A stretch of DNA of 64,000 nt from Patescibacteria group bacterium (lineage in GTDB: Bacteria; Patescibacteriota; Patescibacteriia; Patescibacteriales; GWC2-42-12), in contig JBAZFW010000001.1 of the NCBI GenBank assembly GCA_041653215.1, forward strand, positions 19,202-83,201. Reading direction: 5' to 3'. Position numbers and translations under genes: made by a program. Positions 1,335-45,907 of the stretch are shown here, piece by piece; the stretch's first letter is position 1; each line of letters opens with the position of its first letter. The notes beneath the pieces were generated by a model that saw only the letters and a list, made by a program, of their open reading frames with translations, was not told the DNA's origin and ran no database searches.

Positions 1335-2714
1335 ATGTCAAATAACAAAAAAGTTATAGCTTTACTATTCATCGGGCTTATCGTGGCTTCTTTTTTCTTA
1401 CTAATTGATTTAGATGCTGTTTCAAAAATTTTATTAATAATTTTATTTGGTATTTTTGTTGTCGCTTTTTTAAAACCAATTCAAGGATTATTTCTTTTAA
1501 TAATCGCTAGACCATGCTTAGATATTTTTGCTAATAAAGCTATTATCGCGACTGATAATTTTAGTTTAAATATTGCTTCAATTATCGCGATTCTTACTAT
1601 TTTATTTTCTATAATCATTTTAATAAAAAATTTCTCTAAAGTTAAAACTTTACCGCTTAAATACAACTGGCTGATTTTTATAATCATCGCCTTAGTCTCA
1701 ATTTTTTTCTCTTACAGCGCTTATTTAAGCTTAGCCGAGGGTTTGCGTTTAATAAGTATCTTAGCAATCTACGCGTTAGCTTATCTTTTAATTAACTCGG
1801 AAAAAGATTTAAAAAATTTAATTAAAGCCATAATTATTTCTGCGATTATTCCATCGCTTTTCGCCTTATGGCAATTTTATACTGACAGCGGTTTATCAAT
1901 CCCCTTTGAAGGCATTTACAATAGAATTTACGGCACCTTCGCCCACCCTAATTTATTCGCCTATTATATCCTTATGCCGATAGCTTTGTCGCTTTATCTT
2001 TTTTTAAGCGGCAACAGAAAACAAATAAATAATATTCTATATTTTTTATCAGCAATTTTCTTTATAATAATGTTGGCTCTTACTTTTACCCGCGGCGCCT
2101 GGCTATCATTCTTAATTGTTTTATTAGTAATTGGCATCTTCCGCTATCGCGCTATGTTTATTGCCGCTATAATTTGTTTGGCTCTAGCTTATTTATTTAT
2201 TGAACCATTAAATTACCGCGTTAATGATTTAATGGCCGGGCGTTCAGATAGCTCAATTCAATGGCGCATTAATCTTTGGAACGACGCTAAAGAATATGTT
2301 AAAAGCCAGCCCTTACTGGGTTATGGCGCTGGTGTAGCTAATAAATTAATTATGGATAAGCGCGGTGAAGAATTCGGTTCAAGCGATCCTCATAATGATT
2401 ATTTAAAAATTGCCATTGAGAATGGCTTCGTCGGTTTGCTGGCTTACTTAGCTCTCATAATCGGCTTGTTTATAAAATTAATAAAAAAATATTTTTCTGC
2501 CAATCATAAACAATTTAAAATTTTAATTCTTTCAGTTATCGGCTTATCAATCGCTTTTTATTCTATGAGCGTGGCTGATAATATAATAAGAAACACGGCT
2601 TTAATGTGGTCGTTTTGGGCTTTAATCGGCGCCGTATTTGCTATTCCTGCCATTGCGAGCGACCAGAGAGAGCGAAGCAATCTCACAAATACTGCATCTT
2701 ATAAAAATTCTTAA
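1335..2714 (+). CDS. O-antigen ligase/polymerase (Wzy/WaaL-like) polytopic membrane protein
   Basis: About 10 hydrophobic segments plus a periplasmic-loop region 'FTRGAWLSF...DPHNDYLKI' typical of the O-antigen ligase family. The last ~12 codons are read out of a repeat element. Confidence 0.7.
   Translation: MSNNKKVIALLFIGLIVASFFLLIDLDAVSKILLIILFGIFVVAFLKPIQGLFLLIIARPCLDIFANKAIIATDNFSLNIASIIAILTILFSIIILIKNFSKVKTLPLKYNWLIFIIIALVSIFFSYSAYLSLAEGLRLISILAIYALAYLLINSEKDLKNLIKAIIISAIIPSLFALWQFYTDSGLSIPFEGIYNRIYGTFAHPNLFAYYILMPIALSLYLFLSGNRKQINNILYFLSAIFFIIMLALTFTRGAWLSFLIVLLVIGIFRYRAMFIAAIICLALAYLFIEPLNYRVNDLMAGRSDSSIQWRINLWNDAKEYVKSQPLLGYGAGVANKLIMDKRGEEFGSSDPHNDYLKIAIENGFVGLLAYLALIIGLFIKLIKKYFSANHKQFKILILSVIGLSIAFYSMSVADNIIRNTALMWSFWALIGAVFAIPAIASDQRERSNLTNTASYKNS
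2651..2686. repeat. half-copy of the GTCATTGCGAG...GAAGCAATCTCAC palindromic element, forming the 3' end of the ligase-like ORF
   Basis: 'cattgcgagcgaccagagagagcgaagcaatctcac' resembles the arms of the elements at 8861, 36823 and 45792. Confidence 0.6.
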
Positions 2715-8200: not shown

Positions 8201-9526
8201 TTAATTATTCTTTACTTTTACAATTTTACCTATTAATTTATTATTTCCATCTATTTTTGAACCAAAAATCTGACGTTTATCAACCTCAATATCAAAATAA
8301 TATTCGGTCTTGCCGATTAGTTTATCCTGTTTAATTTGCTCTATAACAATTTCCAATTTTTTACCCTTGAATTTTCTTTTATAATCTCTCATTAATTTAA
8401 CGCCGAACTCTCTTAAAATTTTAGCGCGTTTAGCTTTAATTTTCTCTTCTACTTGATTAGGAAATTTAGCGGCAGGCAGTTTAGCGTGAGCCGAAAAAGG
8501 AAATATATGTAAACGGCTAAATTTTATTTCTCTAATAAATTTTTTCGTCTCTATAAAATCTTTTTCCGTTTCTCCGGGGAAGCCGACGATTACGTCCGTA
8601 GTAATGGCGACGTCTGGCATGGCTCGCCTAATTTTTTTTACTTTATCTAAAAAATATTTTTTGCTATATGGCCGATTCATTAATTTTAAAATTTTATCAG
8701 AACCTGATTGCAAAGGAATGTAAAGATGCTGGCAAATTTTTTTTGAATTCGCTATTAGCTTTATCAAATCATCTGATACTTCGGTAACTTCGATTGAACT
8801 TAAACGCACTCTTCCTAAATCATTAATTTTAATTATTTTTTTTAACAAACTGACCAGATTGTCATTGCGAGGAGCGTCAGCGACGTGGCAATCTAACTTA
8901 CTATTTACTTTGAAATTTGTCCGTGAGATTGCTTCGCTCCTTTTAGTCGCTCGCAATGACAGTTGTCTTTCTTTACCGTAAAGCCCTAAGTGTATGCCGG
9001 ATAAAACAATTTCTTCATACCCAGTCTTAACCGCTCTTTTAATCTCGCAAATAATTTCTTTTTCTCCCCTGCTTTTTAATTTGCCTCGCGTGTATGGCAC
9101 TATACAATAACTGCAATATTGCTCGCAACCATCTTGAATTTTAATAAAATAACGAGAACGATTTTCTTGTTTTACTTCTTTAATTTTATTCGCCACTAGC
9201 AATTTGCAATTAGTAATCTTTTTAACCAAACTATATATCTTATCTCTGTTCATAACATAATCAACATCAGCGTCTTTTGTCTTATAAGCTTTAGGCCAGC
9301 AACCAGTTAAAATAATTTTAGCTTTAGGATTTTCTTTTTTTGCCAGCTTAACCATGCGTCCACTTTTTATTATGGCCGTTTTAGTAACAGCGCAACTATT
9401 AATTATTGCTATACCTGCATTTTTATTAACCATAGTAAATCCGGCCGTTTTTAAACTTGTGGCTAACGAGCCTGAATCATACTGATTAACTTTACAGCCT
9501 AAGGTGTAAATTTTATATGTCTTCAT
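8201..9526 (-). CDS. mtaB: MiaB-family radical SAM methylthiotransferase, MtaB-like, carrying an in-frame repeat-element insertion
   Basis: 'YTLGCKVNQYDS' UPF0004 domain; 'CEQYCSYCIVPYTRG' radical SAM; C-terminal TRAM-like region. A ~37-aa insert 'RQLSLRATKRSEAISRTNFKVNSKLDCHVADAPRNDN' is encoded by the element at 8861-8961. Confidence 0.8.
   Translation of the reverse strand: MKTYKIYTLGCKVNQYDSGSLATSLKTAGFTMVNKNAGIAIINSCAVTKTAIIKSGRMVKLAKKENPKAKIILTGCWPKAYKTKDADVDYVMNRDKIYSLVKKITNCKLLVANKIKEVKQENRSRYFIKIQDGCEQYCSYCIVPYTRGKLKSRGEKEIICEIKRAVKTGYEEIVLSGIHLGLYGKERQLSLRATKRSEAISRTNFKVNSKLDCHVADAPRNDNLVSLLKKIIKINDLGRVRLSSIEVTEVSDDLIKLIANSKKICQHLYIPLQSGSDKILKLMNRPYSKKYFLDKVKKIRRAMPDVAITTDVIVGFPGETEKDFIETKKFIREIKFSRLHIFPFSAHAKLPAAKFPNQVEEKIKAKRAKILREFGVKLMRDYKRKFKGKKLEIVIEQIKQDKLIGKTEYYFDIEVDKRQIFGSKIDGNNKLIGKIVKVKNN
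8861..8961. repeat. MITE-like palindromic element (~101 bp) inside the mtaB coding sequence
   Basis: gtcattgcgaggagcgtcagcgacgtggcaatct ... gtgagattgcttcgctccttttagtcgctcgcaatgaca. Same architecture as 36823-36929 and 45792-45898. Confidence 0.8.
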
Positions 9527-9538
9527 ACTATTTTATTT

Positions 9539-9596
9539 GTCATTGCGGGCACCCCGCCTAGACTCGTTAGGCGAGGCTGGCGACCCGCAATCTAGA
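9539..9596. repeat. short REP-like hairpin (GTCATTGCGGG...CCCGCAATCTAGA), long-loop variant
   Basis: Arms gtcattgcggg / cccgcaatctaga; same family as 33655, 40171 and 40433. Confidence 0.65.
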
Positions 9597-9618
9597 AAAA
9601 AGTTATAACCGACTTAAC

Positions 9619-9647
9619 CTGGACCCCGGGTCAAGCCCGGGATGACA
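9619..9647. repeat. short REP-like hairpin (CTGGACCCCGGG tcaa GCCCGGGATGACA)
   Basis: Same TAGATTSCGGG-N4-CCCGSAATGACA pattern with a compensated stem. Confidence 0.6.
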
Positions 9648-9696
9648 AGCGCTAGTCTTCATACTAAAAAATCCCATTCAAGGGATATTCATTAAT

Positions 9697-9772: not shown

Positions 9773-9788
9773 ATTATGAGAAATAAAA

Positions 9789-9858
9789 TGGTGCACCGTA
9801 CTGGATTCGAAGGGGCAAGCCCCACGCCGACACAACTTATTCTCCACCGTACAGCATA
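9789..9858 (-). pseudogene. tRNA-like remnant whose 3' end duplicates the tRNA-Lys T-loop/acceptor and ends in CCA
   Basis: gtgcaccgtactggattcgaa (9791-9811) matches gtgcgccgtactggattcgaa (9899-9919) at 20/21 positions. The upstream part does not fold into D/anticodon/T stems. Confidence 0.5.
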
Positions 9859-9899
9859 CATAAAAATTAAATCAGCCTAAGGCTGAGTTAATTTTTATG
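9859..9899. other. long near-perfect hairpin immediately 3' of tRNA-Lys
   Basis: cataaaaattaa(a)tcagcc taa ggctga(g)ttaatttttatg. Confidence 0.6.
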
Positions 9900-9972
9900 T
9901 GCGCCGTACTGGATTCGAACCAGTGACCTTCTCCTTAAAAGGGAGCTGCTCTGCCAACTGAGCTAACAGCGC
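9900..9972 (-). tRNA. tRNA-Lys (anticodon UUU), CCA not encoded
   Basis: Hand fold: acceptor gcgctgt/acggcgc; D gctc-agttggca-gagc; anticodon loop ctTTTaa; variable aggtc; T arm actgg-ttcgaat-ccagt; 73 nt. Confidence 0.88.
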
Positions 9973-10150
9973 GTAATATAATTATCAATTGAGCGGTAAC
10001 ATCACGTAAATAAAAAACCCGCTTCAACGGATATGTTAATAATAAAATAACACATCCTCTATAAAAATGCAAATATTTGGTGAAAATCTGTGGAAAAAAA
10101 GTGTGAATTTTGCTCTTGCTTAAACTGATTTCAAAAGGTATTATAAGAAC

Positions 10151-36274: not shown

Positions 36275-36379
36275 ATATTTTAAAACTAATTAAATACATA
36301 ACCCCTTGTTGGATATCGGATTAGGCTCGCAATGACAAATTCACATTCGTAATTCGTAATTGTTAATTCGTAATTAAAT

Positions 36380-36808: not shown

Positions 36809-36822
36809 ATATTTGTTGTTGC

Positions 36823-36929
36823 GTCATTGCGAGGAGCGTAGCGACGAAGCAATCTCACGGACATCAATCTTTTATCTAAACTTGCCATTCGTGAGATTGC
36901 TTCGCTCCTCTTGGTCGCTCGCAATGACA
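36823..36929. repeat. MITE-like palindromic element (~107 bp), intergenic
   Basis: gtcattgcgaggagcgtagcgacgaagcaatctcac...gtgagattgcttcgctcctcttggtcgctcgcaatgaca. Confidence 0.85.
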
Positions 36930-36938
36930 TCTTAAAAA

Positions 36939-40170: not shown

Positions 40171-40197
40171 CTGGATTCCCGCTTACGCGGGAATGAC
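40171..40197. repeat. short REP-like hairpin
   Basis: CTGGATTCCCGC ttac GCGGGAATGACG. Confidence 0.65.
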
Positions 40198-40432
40198 GTT
40201 TAAAAATCACCCTGGGGGTTCGGGGGTTGGAGTTGGCGACAAGGCTTACAGTAAAAAGATAAATCAATATTATAGCCAATCGGAAACCCCCGAGACTTTT
40301 TGCTTACTTTTTAGTCATAAAAAGTAAGTCCTAGCGAAGCGACACGAATGATTATGTTCATAAAAGATATAATAAACTCATTAAACTATCTACTCAGAAA
40401 ATAGATAATACTAAGTTTATCTCACCAACCCC

Positions 40433-40461
40433 TAGATTCCGGCTCGTAGGCCGGAATGACA
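40433..40461. repeat. short REP-like hairpin
   Basis: TAGATTCCGGC tcgta GGCCGGAATGACA. Confidence 0.7.
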
Positions 40462-40466
40462 AAAAA

Positions 40467-42437
40467 TTAATTCGCCGGCGTACTGGTTGCCATATCTCTC
40501 TTAAAATACCAAGTTAAAACTTCATTAGCGATCGGCACAGCCACGCTTGAACCTTCTCCGCCAGCTTCAATTAAAATCGTAATAACTATTTCTGGATTAT
40601 TATATGGCGCAAAACCGGTAAACCAGGCATGAGTCGGCTTAGTCGTCGACCATTGAGCCGTGCCGGTTTTTCCAGCCACTTCTACGGGTACTGATTGCAA
40701 ACTGCGCGCGCTACCAGCCGTAACCGTCTGCCTCATACCTTCTCTAACAATATTTATATTTTTAGAACTTACAATATTAGATTTAATCGGCTTATTATCA
40801 ACTTCGCTAATTAATTGATCTTGGCTATTTAATACTTGTTTAATTAAATGCGGTCGATAAAGCGAGCCGCCATTGGCAAAAACCGCGGTATAGTCAGCGA
40901 CCTGCAGCGGCGTGACTAGAGTATCACCTTGCCCGATAGCTAAATGATAAGTATCACCGATATACCAAGGCTCGCCTTTAGTTTCTTCTTTCCATTCCGC
41001 AGTTGGTAAAAATCCGCTAACTTCACCCGGCATATCAATTCCGGCCTGGGTATCTAAGCCGAATAATTTTTCATATCTTACCATTCGTTCAAGTCCTAAC
41101 CCGGTAAAATCGCCGTAACCGCCGCCGATGTAATAGAAAAAGGTATTAACCGATTCGGCTAACGCCTTTCTAACGTTAGTCGTGCCATGGCCGCCGGCTT
41201 TCCAGTCAGGAAAAAACCATTGCCCTATTCTTAATCCGCCCACGCTTAAAAAACTAGTATTTTCGTCAATCACATTTTCTTCAAGCGCCGCGGCCGCAAT
41301 CACCGGTTTAATTACCGAGCCTGATGGATATTCGCCGCTTATGCAACGATTAAATAACGGGCGATCCGGATGATTGGCGATTGCTTGATATTGCTCGCTA
41401 GTCATACCTTTAGCAAAGTCGTTGTTATTGTACGACGGAAAACTCACCATAGCTAAAATTTCACCATTATTAGGGTCAAGCGCGATAGCGCAAGCTTTAT
41501 TCAAATTATTTTTTTGCAAAACATTTATTATTGATTCTTCTAATTTTTTTTGCAATTCCACGTCAATTGATAAAACTAAATTATGTCCGTTCTCTCCTGC
41601 TTCTTGATTAATAATCTTTTTTTCTTTGCCAAGCGCGTCAACTTCAATTTGTTTTTTTCCATTAACGCCTTTCATTTCATTTTCCCAAAAATTTTCTACG
41701 CCAGATTTACCGATATAATCAATCGGTAAATATTCTAAACCGAATTTAGCCAATTCTTTATCATTAATTTTCCCCGTATAACCTAAGACATGTGATAAGG
41801 ATAAACTATATAAATTATATTCGCGCCTAGTCTTATTAGTTATAACAACTCCGGGCATATTATCCGATTCTAAATAAAGCGCTATAGCTTTATCATAATC
41901 AATATTATCGGCAATAAACAAAGGCTGATATGATTCAAGCGAGCCAGTCTCAACCCCGGATAATAGATTTAAAATATCTTCTGGTTTTAAATCTCCTAAG
42001 ATTTGACTTACCCTATTAATGATAGCCTGTTTAGTCTGATTATCTTTTGGCAAGTCGGACGGCACAAAATATAATAAAAAATTAGCTGAATTTCTGACTA
42101 ACGATTTATAATTCCGATCATAAATTACTCCTCTTCTGCTTTCCATCCTTTCCACTCTAATACGATTGCCTTCAGCCAATTCATAATAATAACTTCCCTT
42201 AACTACTTGCAGCCAAGCGGCGCGCGCTAAAATAATGCCTAAAAATAAAAACAAAACTAAATTAATTTTAAAAATTTTATTTATATCAAAATTTTTGCCA
42301 ATAGTTTCCCTGGCGCTTGAAAGCTGATCTAGCCAATCCTCAGCCGAACCTCGATTTAATTTGCCAAGATTAATATCGCCTTCTTTAACCGTAAAAGGTT
42401 GACTCCTTTTAAATTGTCTTTTAAAAAAAGCGGACAT
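40467..42437 (-). CDS. mrdA: penicillin-binding protein 2 (class B transpeptidase)
   Basis: 'SGSVIKP' (SxxK), 'SVN' (SxN), 'KTGTA' (KTG); N-terminal TM and dimerisation domain; follows mreD. Confidence 0.9.
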   Translation of the reverse strand: MSAFFKRQFKRSQPFTVKEGDINLGKLNRGSAEDWLDQLSSARETIGKNFDINKIFKINLVLFLFLGIILARAAWLQVVKGSYYYELAEGNRIRVERMESRRGVIYDRNYKSLVRNSANFLLYFVPSDLPKDNQTKQAIINRVSQILGDLKPEDILNLLSGVETGSLESYQPLFIADNIDYDKAIALYLESDNMPGVVITNKTRREYNLYSLSLSHVLGYTGKINDKELAKFGLEYLPIDYIGKSGVENFWENEMKGVNGKKQIEVDALGKEKKIINQEAGENGHNLVLSIDVELQKKLEESIINVLQKNNLNKACAIALDPNNGEILAMVSFPSYNNNDFAKGMTSEQYQAIANHPDRPLFNRCISGEYPSGSVIKPVIAAAALEENVIDENTSFLSVGGLRIGQWFFPDWKAGGHGTTNVRKALAESVNTFFYYIGGGYGDFTGLGLERMVRYEKLFGLDTQAGIDMPGEVSGFLPTAEWKEETKGEPWYIGDTYHLAIGQGDTLVTPLQVADYTAVFANGGSLYRPHLIKQVLNSQDQLISEVDNKPIKSNIVSSKNINIVREGMRQTVTAGSARSLQSVPVEVAGKTGTAQWSTTKPTHAWFTGFAPYNNPEIVITILIEAGGEGSSVAVPIANEVLTWYFKRDMATSTPAN

Positions 42438-45782: not shown

Positions 45783-45791
45783 ATATATTCT

Positions 45792-45898
45792 GTCATTGCG
45801 AGGAGCGTAGCGACGAAGCAATCTCACGAACTATAAACTTTTTTCTAAACTCACCATCAGTGAGATTGCTTCGTTTCTTTCAGAAACTCGCAATGACA
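45792..45898. repeat. MITE-like palindromic element (~107 bp), intergenic
   Basis: gtcattgcgaggagcgtagcgacgaagcaatctcac...gtgagattgcttcgtttctttcagaaactcgcaatgaca. The left arm is identical to the one at 36823. Confidence 0.85.
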
Positions 45899-45907
45899 AT
45901 TAATTTT

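What the first reader, a model, noticed from the sequence alone, without database searches (positions are those of the whole stretch)
8861..8961. A ~101-bp MITE-like palindromic element inserted in frame in the radical-SAM methylthiotransferase gene mtaB
The element has ~35-bp inverted arms, GTCATTGCGAGGAGCG...GCAATCT and GAGATTGCTTCGCTCC...CTCGCAATGACA. The same element occurs intergenically at 36823-36929 and 45792-45898. Here it lies within the ORF, which stays open and gains about 37 residues (RQLSLRATKRSEAISRTNFKVNSKLDCHVADAPRNDN). The insertion sits between the 'GIHLGLYGKE' and 'LVSLLKKI...RVRLSSIEV' segments. Established parallel: Rickettsia palindromic elements insert in frame into protein-coding genes. 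I am not aware of an equivalent description for this element type.
Basis: partly seen in the sequence, partly recalled or inferred. Interest (0 to 1): 0.62.

Follow-up and report, generated by a model that had tools for sequence, protein, structure and literature searches.

The report
Hairpin repeat translated inside MtaB loop
A 102-base selfish hairpin repeat sits in frame in a floppy surface loop of the tRNA-modifying enzyme MtaB of an uncultured ultra-small (Patescibacteria) bacterium; this kind of event is known from Rickettsia, but here the same loop has been filled, flipped, swapped and emptied repeatedly among close relatives.

Summary
Window 8860-8961 is a 102-bp imperfect palindrome with 12-bp perfect termini (TGTCATTGCGAG/CTCGCAATGACA). 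It lies in frame in an intact mtaB gene (8201-9526, minus strand). Full copies lie at 36822-36930 and 45791-45899.

The element adds 33-34 residues between GIHLGLYGK and LVSLLKK. AlphaFold models that stretch as disordered (pLDDT below 50) inside an otherwise confident MtaB/MiaB fold. The gene is under purifying selection (dN/dS 0.14-0.20), so it is not a pseudogene.

Some of the 120 closest Patescibacteria MtaB proteins (about 25 by a motif scan) carry repeat-derived peptides in this loop. They come from at least three element types, in both orientations, sometimes nested or decayed. Sister genes often have an empty site.
- Two 99.6%-identical strains differ by a 156-nt patch that holds the element inverted.
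- The window's element is 93% identical to the one in a gene whose synonymous sites are saturated (dS 0.09 against 1.5).

So the loop is both a permissive and a recurrently exchanged site. This is a new member of a known kind (Rickettsia RPEs, intragenic CGTC-tagged REPs). No RNA or protein data exist.

The parts
8201..9526 (-). mtaB, encoding the tRNA ms2t6A methylthiotransferase (441 aa), intact and carrying the element in frame
   Evidence: The ORF is open. TIGR01579 scores 372 bits, above its cut-off. Pfam finds UPF0004 and Radical_SAM. The AF2 model has pLDDT 88, and the top Foldseek hits are MtaB 9a6d and MiaB 7mj* at TM about 0.8. dN/dS is 0.14-0.20.
8860..8961 (-). 102-bp palindromic element (34 codons) that encodes LSLRATKRSEAISRTNFKVNSKLDCHVADAPRND, residues 189-222
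   Evidence: The site is empty in P0002 and P0020. Residues 191-221 have pLDDT below 50.
8860..8871 (.). Terminal inverted repeat TGTCATTGCGAG, carrying a TGTC head tag
   Evidence: It is 100% complementary to 8950-8961. It is conserved in every family copy, in the window and in relatives.
8950..8961 (.). Terminal inverted repeat CTCGCAATGACA
8888..8932 (.). Inner stem (GCAATCT 8888-8894 with AGATTGC 8926-8932) around a loop variant specific to this copy (8895-8925)
   Evidence: The fold is. The loop variant is single-copy in runs X1 and X3 and is seen only in the mtaB context. It is shared only with P0004 among 5.8 billion proteins.
36822..36930 (.). Intergenic full copy between the grpE stop and the hsp20 start
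45791..45899 (.). Intergenic full copy between the murG-like stop and the amidohydrolase start
2649..2686 (+). Half copy (one arm) that supplies the C-terminal codons of a Wzy_C-family ORF (1335..2714)
9531..9654 (-). A second, different hairpin element (canonical CGTC/SRM-type units) inserted on the mtaB start codon. It is flanked by the 12-bp direct repeat TAGTATGAAGAC (9519-9530 and 9655-9666).
   Evidence: The SRM pattern hits 9619-9647.

Best explanation
The element is a non-autonomous, selfish palindromic DNA repeat. Its heads are TGTC/CGTC-tagged, which relates it to the CGTC-REP / dRS3 / RPE-4/6 group. It is lodged in the loop that follows the GIHLGLYG strand of the radical-SAM barrel of MtaB.

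It is transcribed and translated with the gene as a roughly 34-residue, mildly basic, disordered excursion that the enzyme tolerates. It persists because this loop and the inter-domain linker are the only segments of MtaB where extra residues are harmless, and because the element is stop-free in the SLR...RND frame in either orientation.

The site turns over in the lineage. Independent insertions of several element types occur, along with nested insertions and internal deletions. Short-patch recombination replaces, inverts or removes the element between related lineages.

Shown here:
- presence of the element, its reading frame and its copies;
- the empty sister site;
- the disordered-loop prediction;
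- purifying selection on the gene;
- multiple element types and both orientations at the site;
- mosaic patches around the element.

Inferred:
- translation, since there are no RNA or peptide data;
- neutrality of the insert;
- the recombination mechanism and the enzyme that moves the element.
For: Element and copies.

MtaB identity and fold. MiaB has 12 residues where this protein has 41. Non-Patescibacteria MtaB have a constant 28-30-residue span from GIH to RxRxSS. The insert has pLDDT 35-46, while its flanks score 82-98. dN/dS outside the element is 0.195, 0.194 and 0.143 against P0002, P0003 and P0004.

Hot spot: repeat-derived motifs in 120 orthologues fall only at reference residues 180-225 (about 25 proteins) and in the linker at about 103-118 (18 proteins). 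Both are low-pLDDT segments.

Scattered insert state on the tree: sister pairs are P0001[A]/P0002[empty] (100*), P0004[A]/P0020[empty] (99*) and P0003[A+nested]/P0006[B] (97*). Starred branches force at least 8 changes.

Distinct insertion points: A-type elements start 13 nt after the GGN codon, whereas B and C types start 5 nt after it.

Orientation: L092 and L093 are 99.6% identical loci. They differ by a 156-nt patch that holds the element inverted (84 of 93 positions match the reverse complement) plus 49 nt upstream and 13 nt downstream. The window's copy is stop-free in the same frame in both orientations.

Mosaic flanks in the window: the 51 flanking nt differ from sister P0002 at 31%, against 8.9% for the rest of the gene (Fisher p = 1e-5), and they resemble P0003.

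Element younger than the gene: against P0004 the element has dS 0.088 and 94% third-position identity, while the gene has dS 1.52 and 53%.
Against: - There are no transcript or peptide data. No RNA runs hold this stretch.
- The orthologue set came from called full-length proteins, so frame-breaking insertions would have been missed. That is an ascertainment bias.
- No target-site duplication, transposase or autonomous parent was found for this element type.
- The A-type insertion point is identical to the nucleotide in seven lineages. The boundary of high identity between the window and P0004 falls exactly at the element ends. Both fit a targeted mechanism better than random insertion followed by selection.
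- The position of the loop relative to the tRNA-binding face could not be measured, so neutrality is assumed.
Confidence: 0.78

Rival explanations
1. The loop is a landing pad served by site-specific homing or cassette exchange. A hairpin-specific nuclease, for example a small Ssn-like GIY-YIG enzyme that cuts single-stranded hairpin DNA during replication or DNA uptake, would break the site. Repair from a homologous or element-bearing template would then insert, invert or replace the element at this exact position. The conserved arms would act as portable homology.
For: - The insertion point is the same to the nucleotide in seven A-type lineages.
- The same rare loop variant occurs only in P0001 and P0004, two genes with dS 1.5, and each has an empty-site sister.
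- The identity boundary falls at the element ends.
- Patches of about 150 nt are centred on the element in two independent pairs.
- Small GIY-YIG genes lie within 1 kb upstream of mtaB in four relatives: L001, L081/82, L095 and L098.
- Ssn nucleases cut next to CGTC-type hairpins and modulate transformation (PMC11893778).
Against: - There is no GIY-YIG gene in the 64-kb window.
- Presence of the GIY-YIG gene does not track insert state: P0002 is empty but has the gene.
- A-type arms do not match the published SRM pattern and do not fold as single hairpins.
- Ssn is reported to cut at hairpins, not at empty sites.
- Elements also accumulate in the linker, so permissiveness alone explains recurrence at the level of the region.
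- B and C types use a different insertion point.
Confidence: 0.3
2. A single ancient insertion was inherited vertically and kept because the insert has a function, either as a tRNA-contacting peptide or as an mRNA structure that controls mtaB expression. Empty sites would then be secondary precise losses.
For: The element is far more conserved than synonymous sites between the window and P0004. The insert has a net charge of about +3 and sits on the C-terminal, active-site side of a barrel strand. The hairpin is strong.
Against: - It requires at least 8 independent precise losses.
- Unrelated element types and both orientations, which encode different peptides, occupy the site.
- Decayed remnants exist (P0024, P0029, P0031).
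- Within the element dN/dS is about 0.76, with no protein-level constraint.
- Loops differ between lineages.
- Most MtaB proteins lack any insert.
- There is no Rfam match.
Confidence: 0.07
3. The insert is not part of the protein. It would be removed from the mRNA, bypassed by the ribosome, or the gene would be a recently inactivated pseudogene or an assembly chimera.
For: There is no expression evidence of any kind. The hairpin is stable enough to be an RNase III-type substrate.
Against: - The frame is kept and the insert is stop-free here and in every insert-bearing orthologue whose DNA was examined.
- Junction-spanning contigs appear in independent runs.
- dN/dS is 0.14-0.20.
- No intron or ribozyme family matches.
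- No contig joins the two flanks (no joints).
Confidence: 0.04

Closest known systems
Rickettsia palindromic elements (RPEs; Ogata et al. 2000 and 2002, as summarised in PMC10969869)
   Same: Both are short palindromic selfish repeats that occur intergenically and in frame inside housekeeping genes. They are translated as extra peptide segments at positions compatible with the fold, in a host with a reduced genome.
   Different: The phylum differs (Patescibacteria, not Alphaproteobacteria). This element is about 100 bp, against about 150 bp for RPE-1. RPE sequences were not compared here. In this case the same loop is occupied by several element types in both orientations, and filled and empty alleles are found in sister lineages. 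I did not find such turnover reported for RPEs in the texts I read.
CGTC-tagged REPs (Di Nocera, De Gregorio and Rocco 2013, PMC3733652), which include Neisseria dRS3 and Rickettsia RPE-4 and RPE-6
   Same: The head tag is CGTC or TGTC, followed by a stem that starts with AT. The repeats are often arranged as inverted dimers. Intragenic in-frame copies are documented, including different REPs at about the same site in recB of two Xanthomonas species. The B and C elements in orthologues, and the window elements at 9531-9654 and 40171-40198, are canonical members.
   Different: The A-type arms of the mtaB element lack the 8-9-bp stem with a 4-5-nt loop and lack the CCA tail. Single arms do not fold. 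The element is one long hairpin with an asymmetric internal loop. Patescibacteria were not among the phyla that paper surveyed.
Ssn nucleases with their NTS/SRM hairpin repeats (Chenal et al. 2025, PMC11893778)
   Same: These are hairpin repeats headed by CGTCAT. They are associated with small single-domain GIY-YIG genes and linked to recombination of incoming DNA. A near-consensus NTS lies in the window at 40171-40198.
   Different: The mtaB element does not match the SRM search pattern. There is no GIY-YIG gene in the window. NTS repeats are rarely intragenic (2% in N. meningitidis). Whether the neighbouring GIY-YIG genes of relatives belong to family cd10448 could not be tested.
Bacterial MITEs such as Correia, ERIC and Nezha (review PMC10969869)
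   Same: Small size, terminal inverted repeats, multiple copies, no coding capacity and occasional in-frame fusions.
   Different: This family has no target-site duplication and no identified parent transposon or transposase.

Membership tests
MtaB (TIGR01579; radical-SAM methylthiotransferase) | The whole-protein score exceeds the curated cut-off, and the protein has the three-domain UPF0004 + radical SAM + TRAM-like architecture | tested here: met
   The score is 372.3 bits against a cut-off of 357.05. Pfam finds UPF0004 and Radical_SAM. Foldseek gives TM 0.82 to MtaB 9a6d and about 0.8 to MiaB.
MtaB (TIGR01579; radical-SAM methylthiotransferase) | The CxxxCxxC radical-SAM cluster motif and three N-terminal cluster cysteines are conserved | tested here: met
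   C134, C138 and C141 (CEQYCSYC) and C11, C45 and C76 are invariant in 120 orthologues, including the window protein.
CGTC-tagged REP superfamily (PMC3733652) | An unpaired terminal CGTC motif (or its TGTC/CCTC variants) at one end of each unit | tested here: met
   The mtaB copy and the 45791 copy have TGTC. The 36822 copy has CGTC.
CGTC-tagged REP superfamily (PMC3733652) | Each unit is a hairpin with an 8-9-bp stem that starts with AT, a 4-5-nt loop and a short CCA-like tail | tested here: not met
   Single A-type arms fold no better than shuffles (z from +1.4 to -0.8), whereas the canonical unit at 40171 has z = -6.3. Only ATTGC/GCAAT (5 bp) could pair within an arm.
Ssn-related motif (SRM; PMC11893778) | A match to HGTCWYN(0-2)YYVSBRHN(0-5)WNVSBRGN(0-2)RNCYNB | tested here: not met
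   The pattern hits only 9619-9647 and 40171-40198 in the window (0.04 expected). It does not hit the mtaB element or its two full copies.
Ssn-related motif (SRM; PMC11893778) | A cognate single-domain GIY-YIG (cd10448) gene in the genome, typically flanked by the repeats | tested here: inconclusive
   None lies in the 64-kb window. The whole genome could not be searched. Small UPF0213-like GIY-YIG genes lie upstream of mtaB in four relatives, but cd10448 membership is not testable with these libraries.
MITE | Terminal inverted repeats, small size, no ORF of its own and multiple dispersed copies | tested here: met
   There are 12-bp perfect TIRs, a length of 102-109 bp, three full copies plus fragments in 64 kb, and a 20- to 70-fold depth excess over the gene in metagenome contigs.
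MITE | A target-site duplication flanking each copy | tested here: not met
   No direct repeat of 3 bp or more flanks the three full copies, and comparison with the empty site of P0002 and P0020 shows none. By contrast, the different element at 9531-9654 has a 12-bp duplication.
MITE | An autonomous parent element with the same termini that encodes a transposase | tested here: inconclusive
   No pair of termini enclosing an ORF was found in 685 kb of held loci or in 17 viral-contig hits. The collections searched are small relative to the question.
Rickettsia palindromic elements | Sequence similarity to one of the defined RPE families | not tested
The link is by mode of residence, and through the statement in PMC3733652 that RPE-4 and RPE-6 are CGTC repeats.
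Rickettsia palindromic elements | In-frame, stop-free residence in a housekeeping ORF at a structurally permissive site | tested here: met

The most novel reading that the evidence does not exclude
The MtaB loop is a dedicated exchange site, not merely a tolerant spot. Once a hairpin element is present, hairpin-specific cleavage (for example by Ssn-like GIY-YIG nucleases acting on single-stranded DNA during replication or natural transformation) triggers short-tract gene conversion. That conversion copies, inverts, replaces or deletes the element between lineages, and the conserved arms serve as portable homology. Palindromic repeats would then behave as homing-like cassettes inside an essential-type gene of CPR bacteria. 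They would also record frequent inter-lineage recombination in a group thought to be largely clonal.
Probability: 0.3. Interest if true: 0.75.

Novelty: new member of a known kind. Interest (0 to 1): 0.5.

Why it matters
- It extends the 'selfish DNA inside protein-coding genes' phenomenon from Rickettsia and some Proteobacteria to the ultra-small Patescibacteria.
- It provides a natural insertion-tolerance map of a radical-SAM methylthiotransferase. Only the post-GIHLGLYG loop and the inter-domain linker accept inserts.
- Closely related strains carry filled, empty, inverted and replaced alleles with short mosaic flanks. The site is therefore a ready-made marker for recombination and element mobility in uncultured CPR populations.
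- It offers a concrete place to test whether small GIY-YIG/Ssn-type nucleases drive hairpin-repeat dynamics.
- On the practical side, such inserts inflate protein lengths and create spurious 'SLRGA...ARND' peptides in databases.

Tried and rejected
- RNA evidence: no RNA run holds the gene.
- Loop-variant search in metagenome contigs: 7 hits, all chance matches in unrelated AT-rich genes. That collection also lacks the window's own contig, so the result is uninformative.
- Known RNA family, intron or riboswitch: no Rfam match to the element. No terminator-like or unusual promoter-like site at the element.
- Filing the element as an SRM/NTS repeat or a canonical CGTC REP unit was rejected for the A-type arms.
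- An autonomous parent with the same termini, or a GIY-YIG gene between the arms, was not found in held loci or in viral contigs.
- A literature search by the terminal sequence returned only chance primer matches. A search for 'Candidate Phyla Radiation' plus 'miniature inverted-repeat' returned one unrelated preprint.
- A window-wide inverted-repeat scan returned mostly terminators and added nothing.
- Vertical inheritance of one ancient neutral insertion was rejected: element dS is 0.09 against gene dS 1.5, and the tree needs at least 8 state changes.
Full report
**What is there.** Window 8860-8961 reads TGTCATTGCGAG...CTCGCAATGACA.
- The outer 12 bp form a perfect inverted repeat.
- An inner stem pairs GCAATCT (8888-8894) with AGATTGC (8926-8932).
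- The whole element folds as one long imperfect hairpin. As RNA it reaches -36.8 kcal/mol with z = -4.9, and none of 200 shuffles folds as well.
- The terminal 11-mer, allowing one mismatch, occurs 10 times in the window against 0.45 expected.
- Full copies lie at 36822-36930, between the grpE stop and the hsp20 start, and at 45791-45899, between a murG-like stop and an amidohydrolase start. One arm at 2649-2686 forms the C-terminal codons of a Wzy_C-family ORF.

**The host gene.** ORF 8201..9526 (minus strand, 441 aa) is open through the element. It is MtaB on three counts:
- TIGR01579 scores 372 bits against a cut-off of 357, and the match is split in two by the insert.
- Pfam finds UPF0004 plus Radical_SAM.
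- The AlphaFold model (pLDDT 88, pTM 0.86) matches B. subtilis MtaB and MiaB at TM about 0.8.

**Not an artefact.** Logan contigs with zero mismatches cross the left junction in runs X1 and X3 and the right junction in X1 and X2. X2 comes from a different study.
- Depth over the arms is 20- to 70-fold that of the gene, so the arms are highly repeated in those communities.
- The central loop variant is single-copy and is seen only in the mtaB context.

**Where it sits in the protein.** The 34 codons encode LSLRATKRSEAISRTNFKVNSKLDCHVADAPRND, residues 189-222, between the GIHLGLYG strand and the LVSLLKK helix.
- Residues 191-221 have pLDDT below 50, while the flanks score 82-98.
- MiaB has 12 residues where this protein has 41.
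- In 50 non-Patescibacteria MtaB genes the span from GIH to RxRxSS is a constant 28-30 residues.
- The closest relative, P0002 (90% identical, sister with 100% support), reads GKDNK|NSLV with no insert.

**The gene is functional.**
- The catalytic cysteines are invariant.
- dN/dS outside the element is 0.195, 0.194 and 0.143 against P0002, P0003 and P0004.
- Translation of the insert is inferred from the kept frame. No RNA runs exist for this stretch.

**The loop is a hot spot.** Among the 120 closest MtaB proteins, the segment from GIHLGLYG through LVSLLKK varies from 16 to 75 residues. Many inserts carry the signatures of palindromic repeats:
- A-type in one orientation: SLRAT..SEAIS..DC.VAGAPRND.
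- The same element inverted: SLRGA.AT.QS..EIA.LPSVARND.
- B-type canonical CGTC units: SVMPDLIRHP..LDSRLRGND.
- C-type: SVIAGLTRNP.
- Nested combinations (P0003, P0010, P0016, P0027, P0046).
- Decayed remnants (P0024, P0029, P0031).

A motif scan places these signatures in only two regions of the alignment. One is this loop, at reference residues 180-225. The other is the inter-domain linker at about 103-118, in 18 proteins. Both are the low-confidence segments of the model. Structural permissiveness is therefore a sufficient filter at the level of the region.

DNA from eleven orthologues refines this:
- All A-type copies start 13 nt after the GGN codon of the GK dipeptide, at the same nucleotide.
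- B and C copies start 5 nt after it.
- At least two separate insertion points and three element types are therefore involved.

**Turnover and recombination.** On a tree built without the loop columns, the insert state is no more clustered than shuffled labels. Well-supported branches alone force at least 8 changes. Filled and empty alleles are sisters three times, and an A+nested allele is sister to a B allele. Four further observations bear on this:
- L092 and L093 are 99.6% identical over about 4.4 kb. They differ by a 156-nt patch made of 49 nt upstream, the element in the opposite orientation (84 of 93 positions match the reverse complement) and 13 nt downstream. The P0037 allele was assembled independently twice.
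- The window shows the same structure against its sister P0002. The 51 nt flanking the element differ at 31%, against 8.9% elsewhere (p = 1e-5), and they resemble P0003.
- The window's copy is stop-free in the same frame in both orientations, so flips are tolerated.
- The window's element is 93% identical to the one in P0004, with third positions at 94% and dS 0.088. The host genes have 53% third-position identity and dS 1.52, and the immediate flanks are at background divergence. That loop variant occurs in no other protein of comparable length among 5.8 billion.

A single ancient, neutral, vertically inherited insertion is thus excluded. Either the element, or a patch containing it, moved between lineages, or it re-inserted at the same nucleotide.

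**How it most likely works.** The element is a selfish hairpin repeat that entered a permissive loop. It is carried through transcription and translation as a disordered excursion. Selection keeps only in-frame, stop-free versions. The site is then remodelled by further insertions, internal deletions and short-patch homologous exchange.

The enzyme that moves the element was not identified:
- No target-site duplication flanks the three copies.
- No parent element with the same termini was found.
- No GIY-YIG gene lies in the window.
- Small UPF0213-like GIY-YIG genes do lie within 1 kb upstream of mtaB in four relatives, next to tRNA genes. Their presence does not track the insert state.

**Comparison with known systems.** The mode of residence is that of Rickettsia RPEs (PMC10969869).
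- The TGTC/CGTC head followed by AT links the element to the CGTC-tagged REP superfamily. That superfamily includes dRS3, RPE-4 and RPE-6 and has documented intragenic copies, including same-site REPs in recB of two Xanthomonas species (PMC3733652).
- The A-type arms are not canonical units. They fail the published SRM pattern and do not fold on their own.
- Canonical units do occur in the window, at 9619-9647 and 40171-40198. The latter is nearly the Neisseria NTS consensus.
- Ssn nucleases cut single-stranded DNA beside such hairpins and modulate transformation (PMC11893778). This is a lead for the mechanism, not a tested link.
- The A-type left arm occurs in 17 IMG/VR contigs with G+C from 41 to 67%, so the family is very widespread.
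- I found no paper describing it in Patescibacteria, or by its sequence.

**Earlier notes of this scan.** One note reported the same MtaB phenomenon in another genome and proposed a landing-pad reading. Others reported start-codon cassettes and GIY-YIG parents. I treated them as leads.
- The inversion, the patch and the dS results here are independent tests that partly support the landing-pad idea.
- The GIY-YIG parent claim was not confirmed for this element type.

**Limits.**
- The orthologue set is biased towards intact ORFs.

**Verdict.** The element is a new member of a known kind. The added finding is that the site is a recurrently exchanged hot spot. Interest is 0.5.

Noticed in passing
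window 9519-9666: A second, different hairpin element (124 bp, two canonical CGTC/SRM-type units tail to tail) sits exactly on the mtaB start codon. It is flanked by a 12-bp direct repeat, TAGTATGAAGAC, that contains the ATG. The upstream copy opens a 19-codon dead-end frame, and the downstream copy is the real start. The same gene therefore carries two unrelated hairpin insertions.
   Followed up: partly
window 2649-2686: One arm of the A-type element supplies the last ~22 codons, and leads into the stop codon, of a Wzy_C (O-antigen ligase-like) ORF at 1335..2714.
   Followed up: partly
window 40171-40198 and 40428-40460: CGTCATTCCCGCGTAAGCGGGAATCCAG is almost identical to the Neisseria NTS consensus CGTCATTCCCGCGMAVGCGGGAATCYRG (z = -6.3 as a DNA hairpin). 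A second unit (ctagattccggctcgtaggccggaatgaca) lies about 240 bp away. The two bracket a non-coding stretch upstream of the ORF at 40467..42437.
   Followed up: no
L081 5282-5640, compared with window 9975-10030: In the closest relative, a 78-110-aa GIY-YIG gene sits immediately 5' of tRNA-Lys. It is preceded by a degenerate duplicate of the tRNA's 5' end (cgcgctgtta...ggctcagttggca). The window has the uninterrupted arrangement. Similar small GIY-YIG genes lie upstream of mtaB in L001, L095 and L098.
   Followed up: partly
MtaB orthologue alignment A3, reference residues ~103-118 (window ~9170-9220): The linker between the UPF0004 and radical-SAM domains is a second insertion hot spot. 18 of 120 orthologues carry EIAS...LAMT or PAMT peptides there, from the same element families read in another frame. 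The window's own linker has none.
   Followed up: partly
window 36338-36375; orthologue linkers (P0003, P0009, P0013): An ATTCGTA-type heptamer run (ttcgtaattcgtaattgttaattcgtaatt) lies next to a terminal fragment of the element. The same repeat seems to be translated as NYELRITN in the linkers of several MtaB orthologues.
   Followed up: no
window 9785-9900: Between tRNA-Lys and tRNA-Thr there is a 30-nt inverted repeat (9849-9909), followed by a second copy of the tRNA-Lys 3' end (cttcgaatccagtacggtgcacca). This may be a tRNA fragment left by an earlier insertion. It is conserved in L081.
   Followed up: no
L099-L115 (IMG/VR contigs): The A-type left arm GTCATTGCGAGGAGCGNNNGCGACG occurs in 17 viral-collection contigs with G+C from 41 to 67%. 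Some are complete 71-119-bp hairpin elements and some are solo arms. In L113 two elements abut terminus to terminus.
   Followed up: partly
L093 4719-5630 / L094 3294-4205: An rve-family (IS3/IS481-like) integrase gene lies about 450 bp downstream of mtaB in the strain that carries the inverted element allele. L092 ends before that point, so the two strains cannot be compared there.
   Followed up: no
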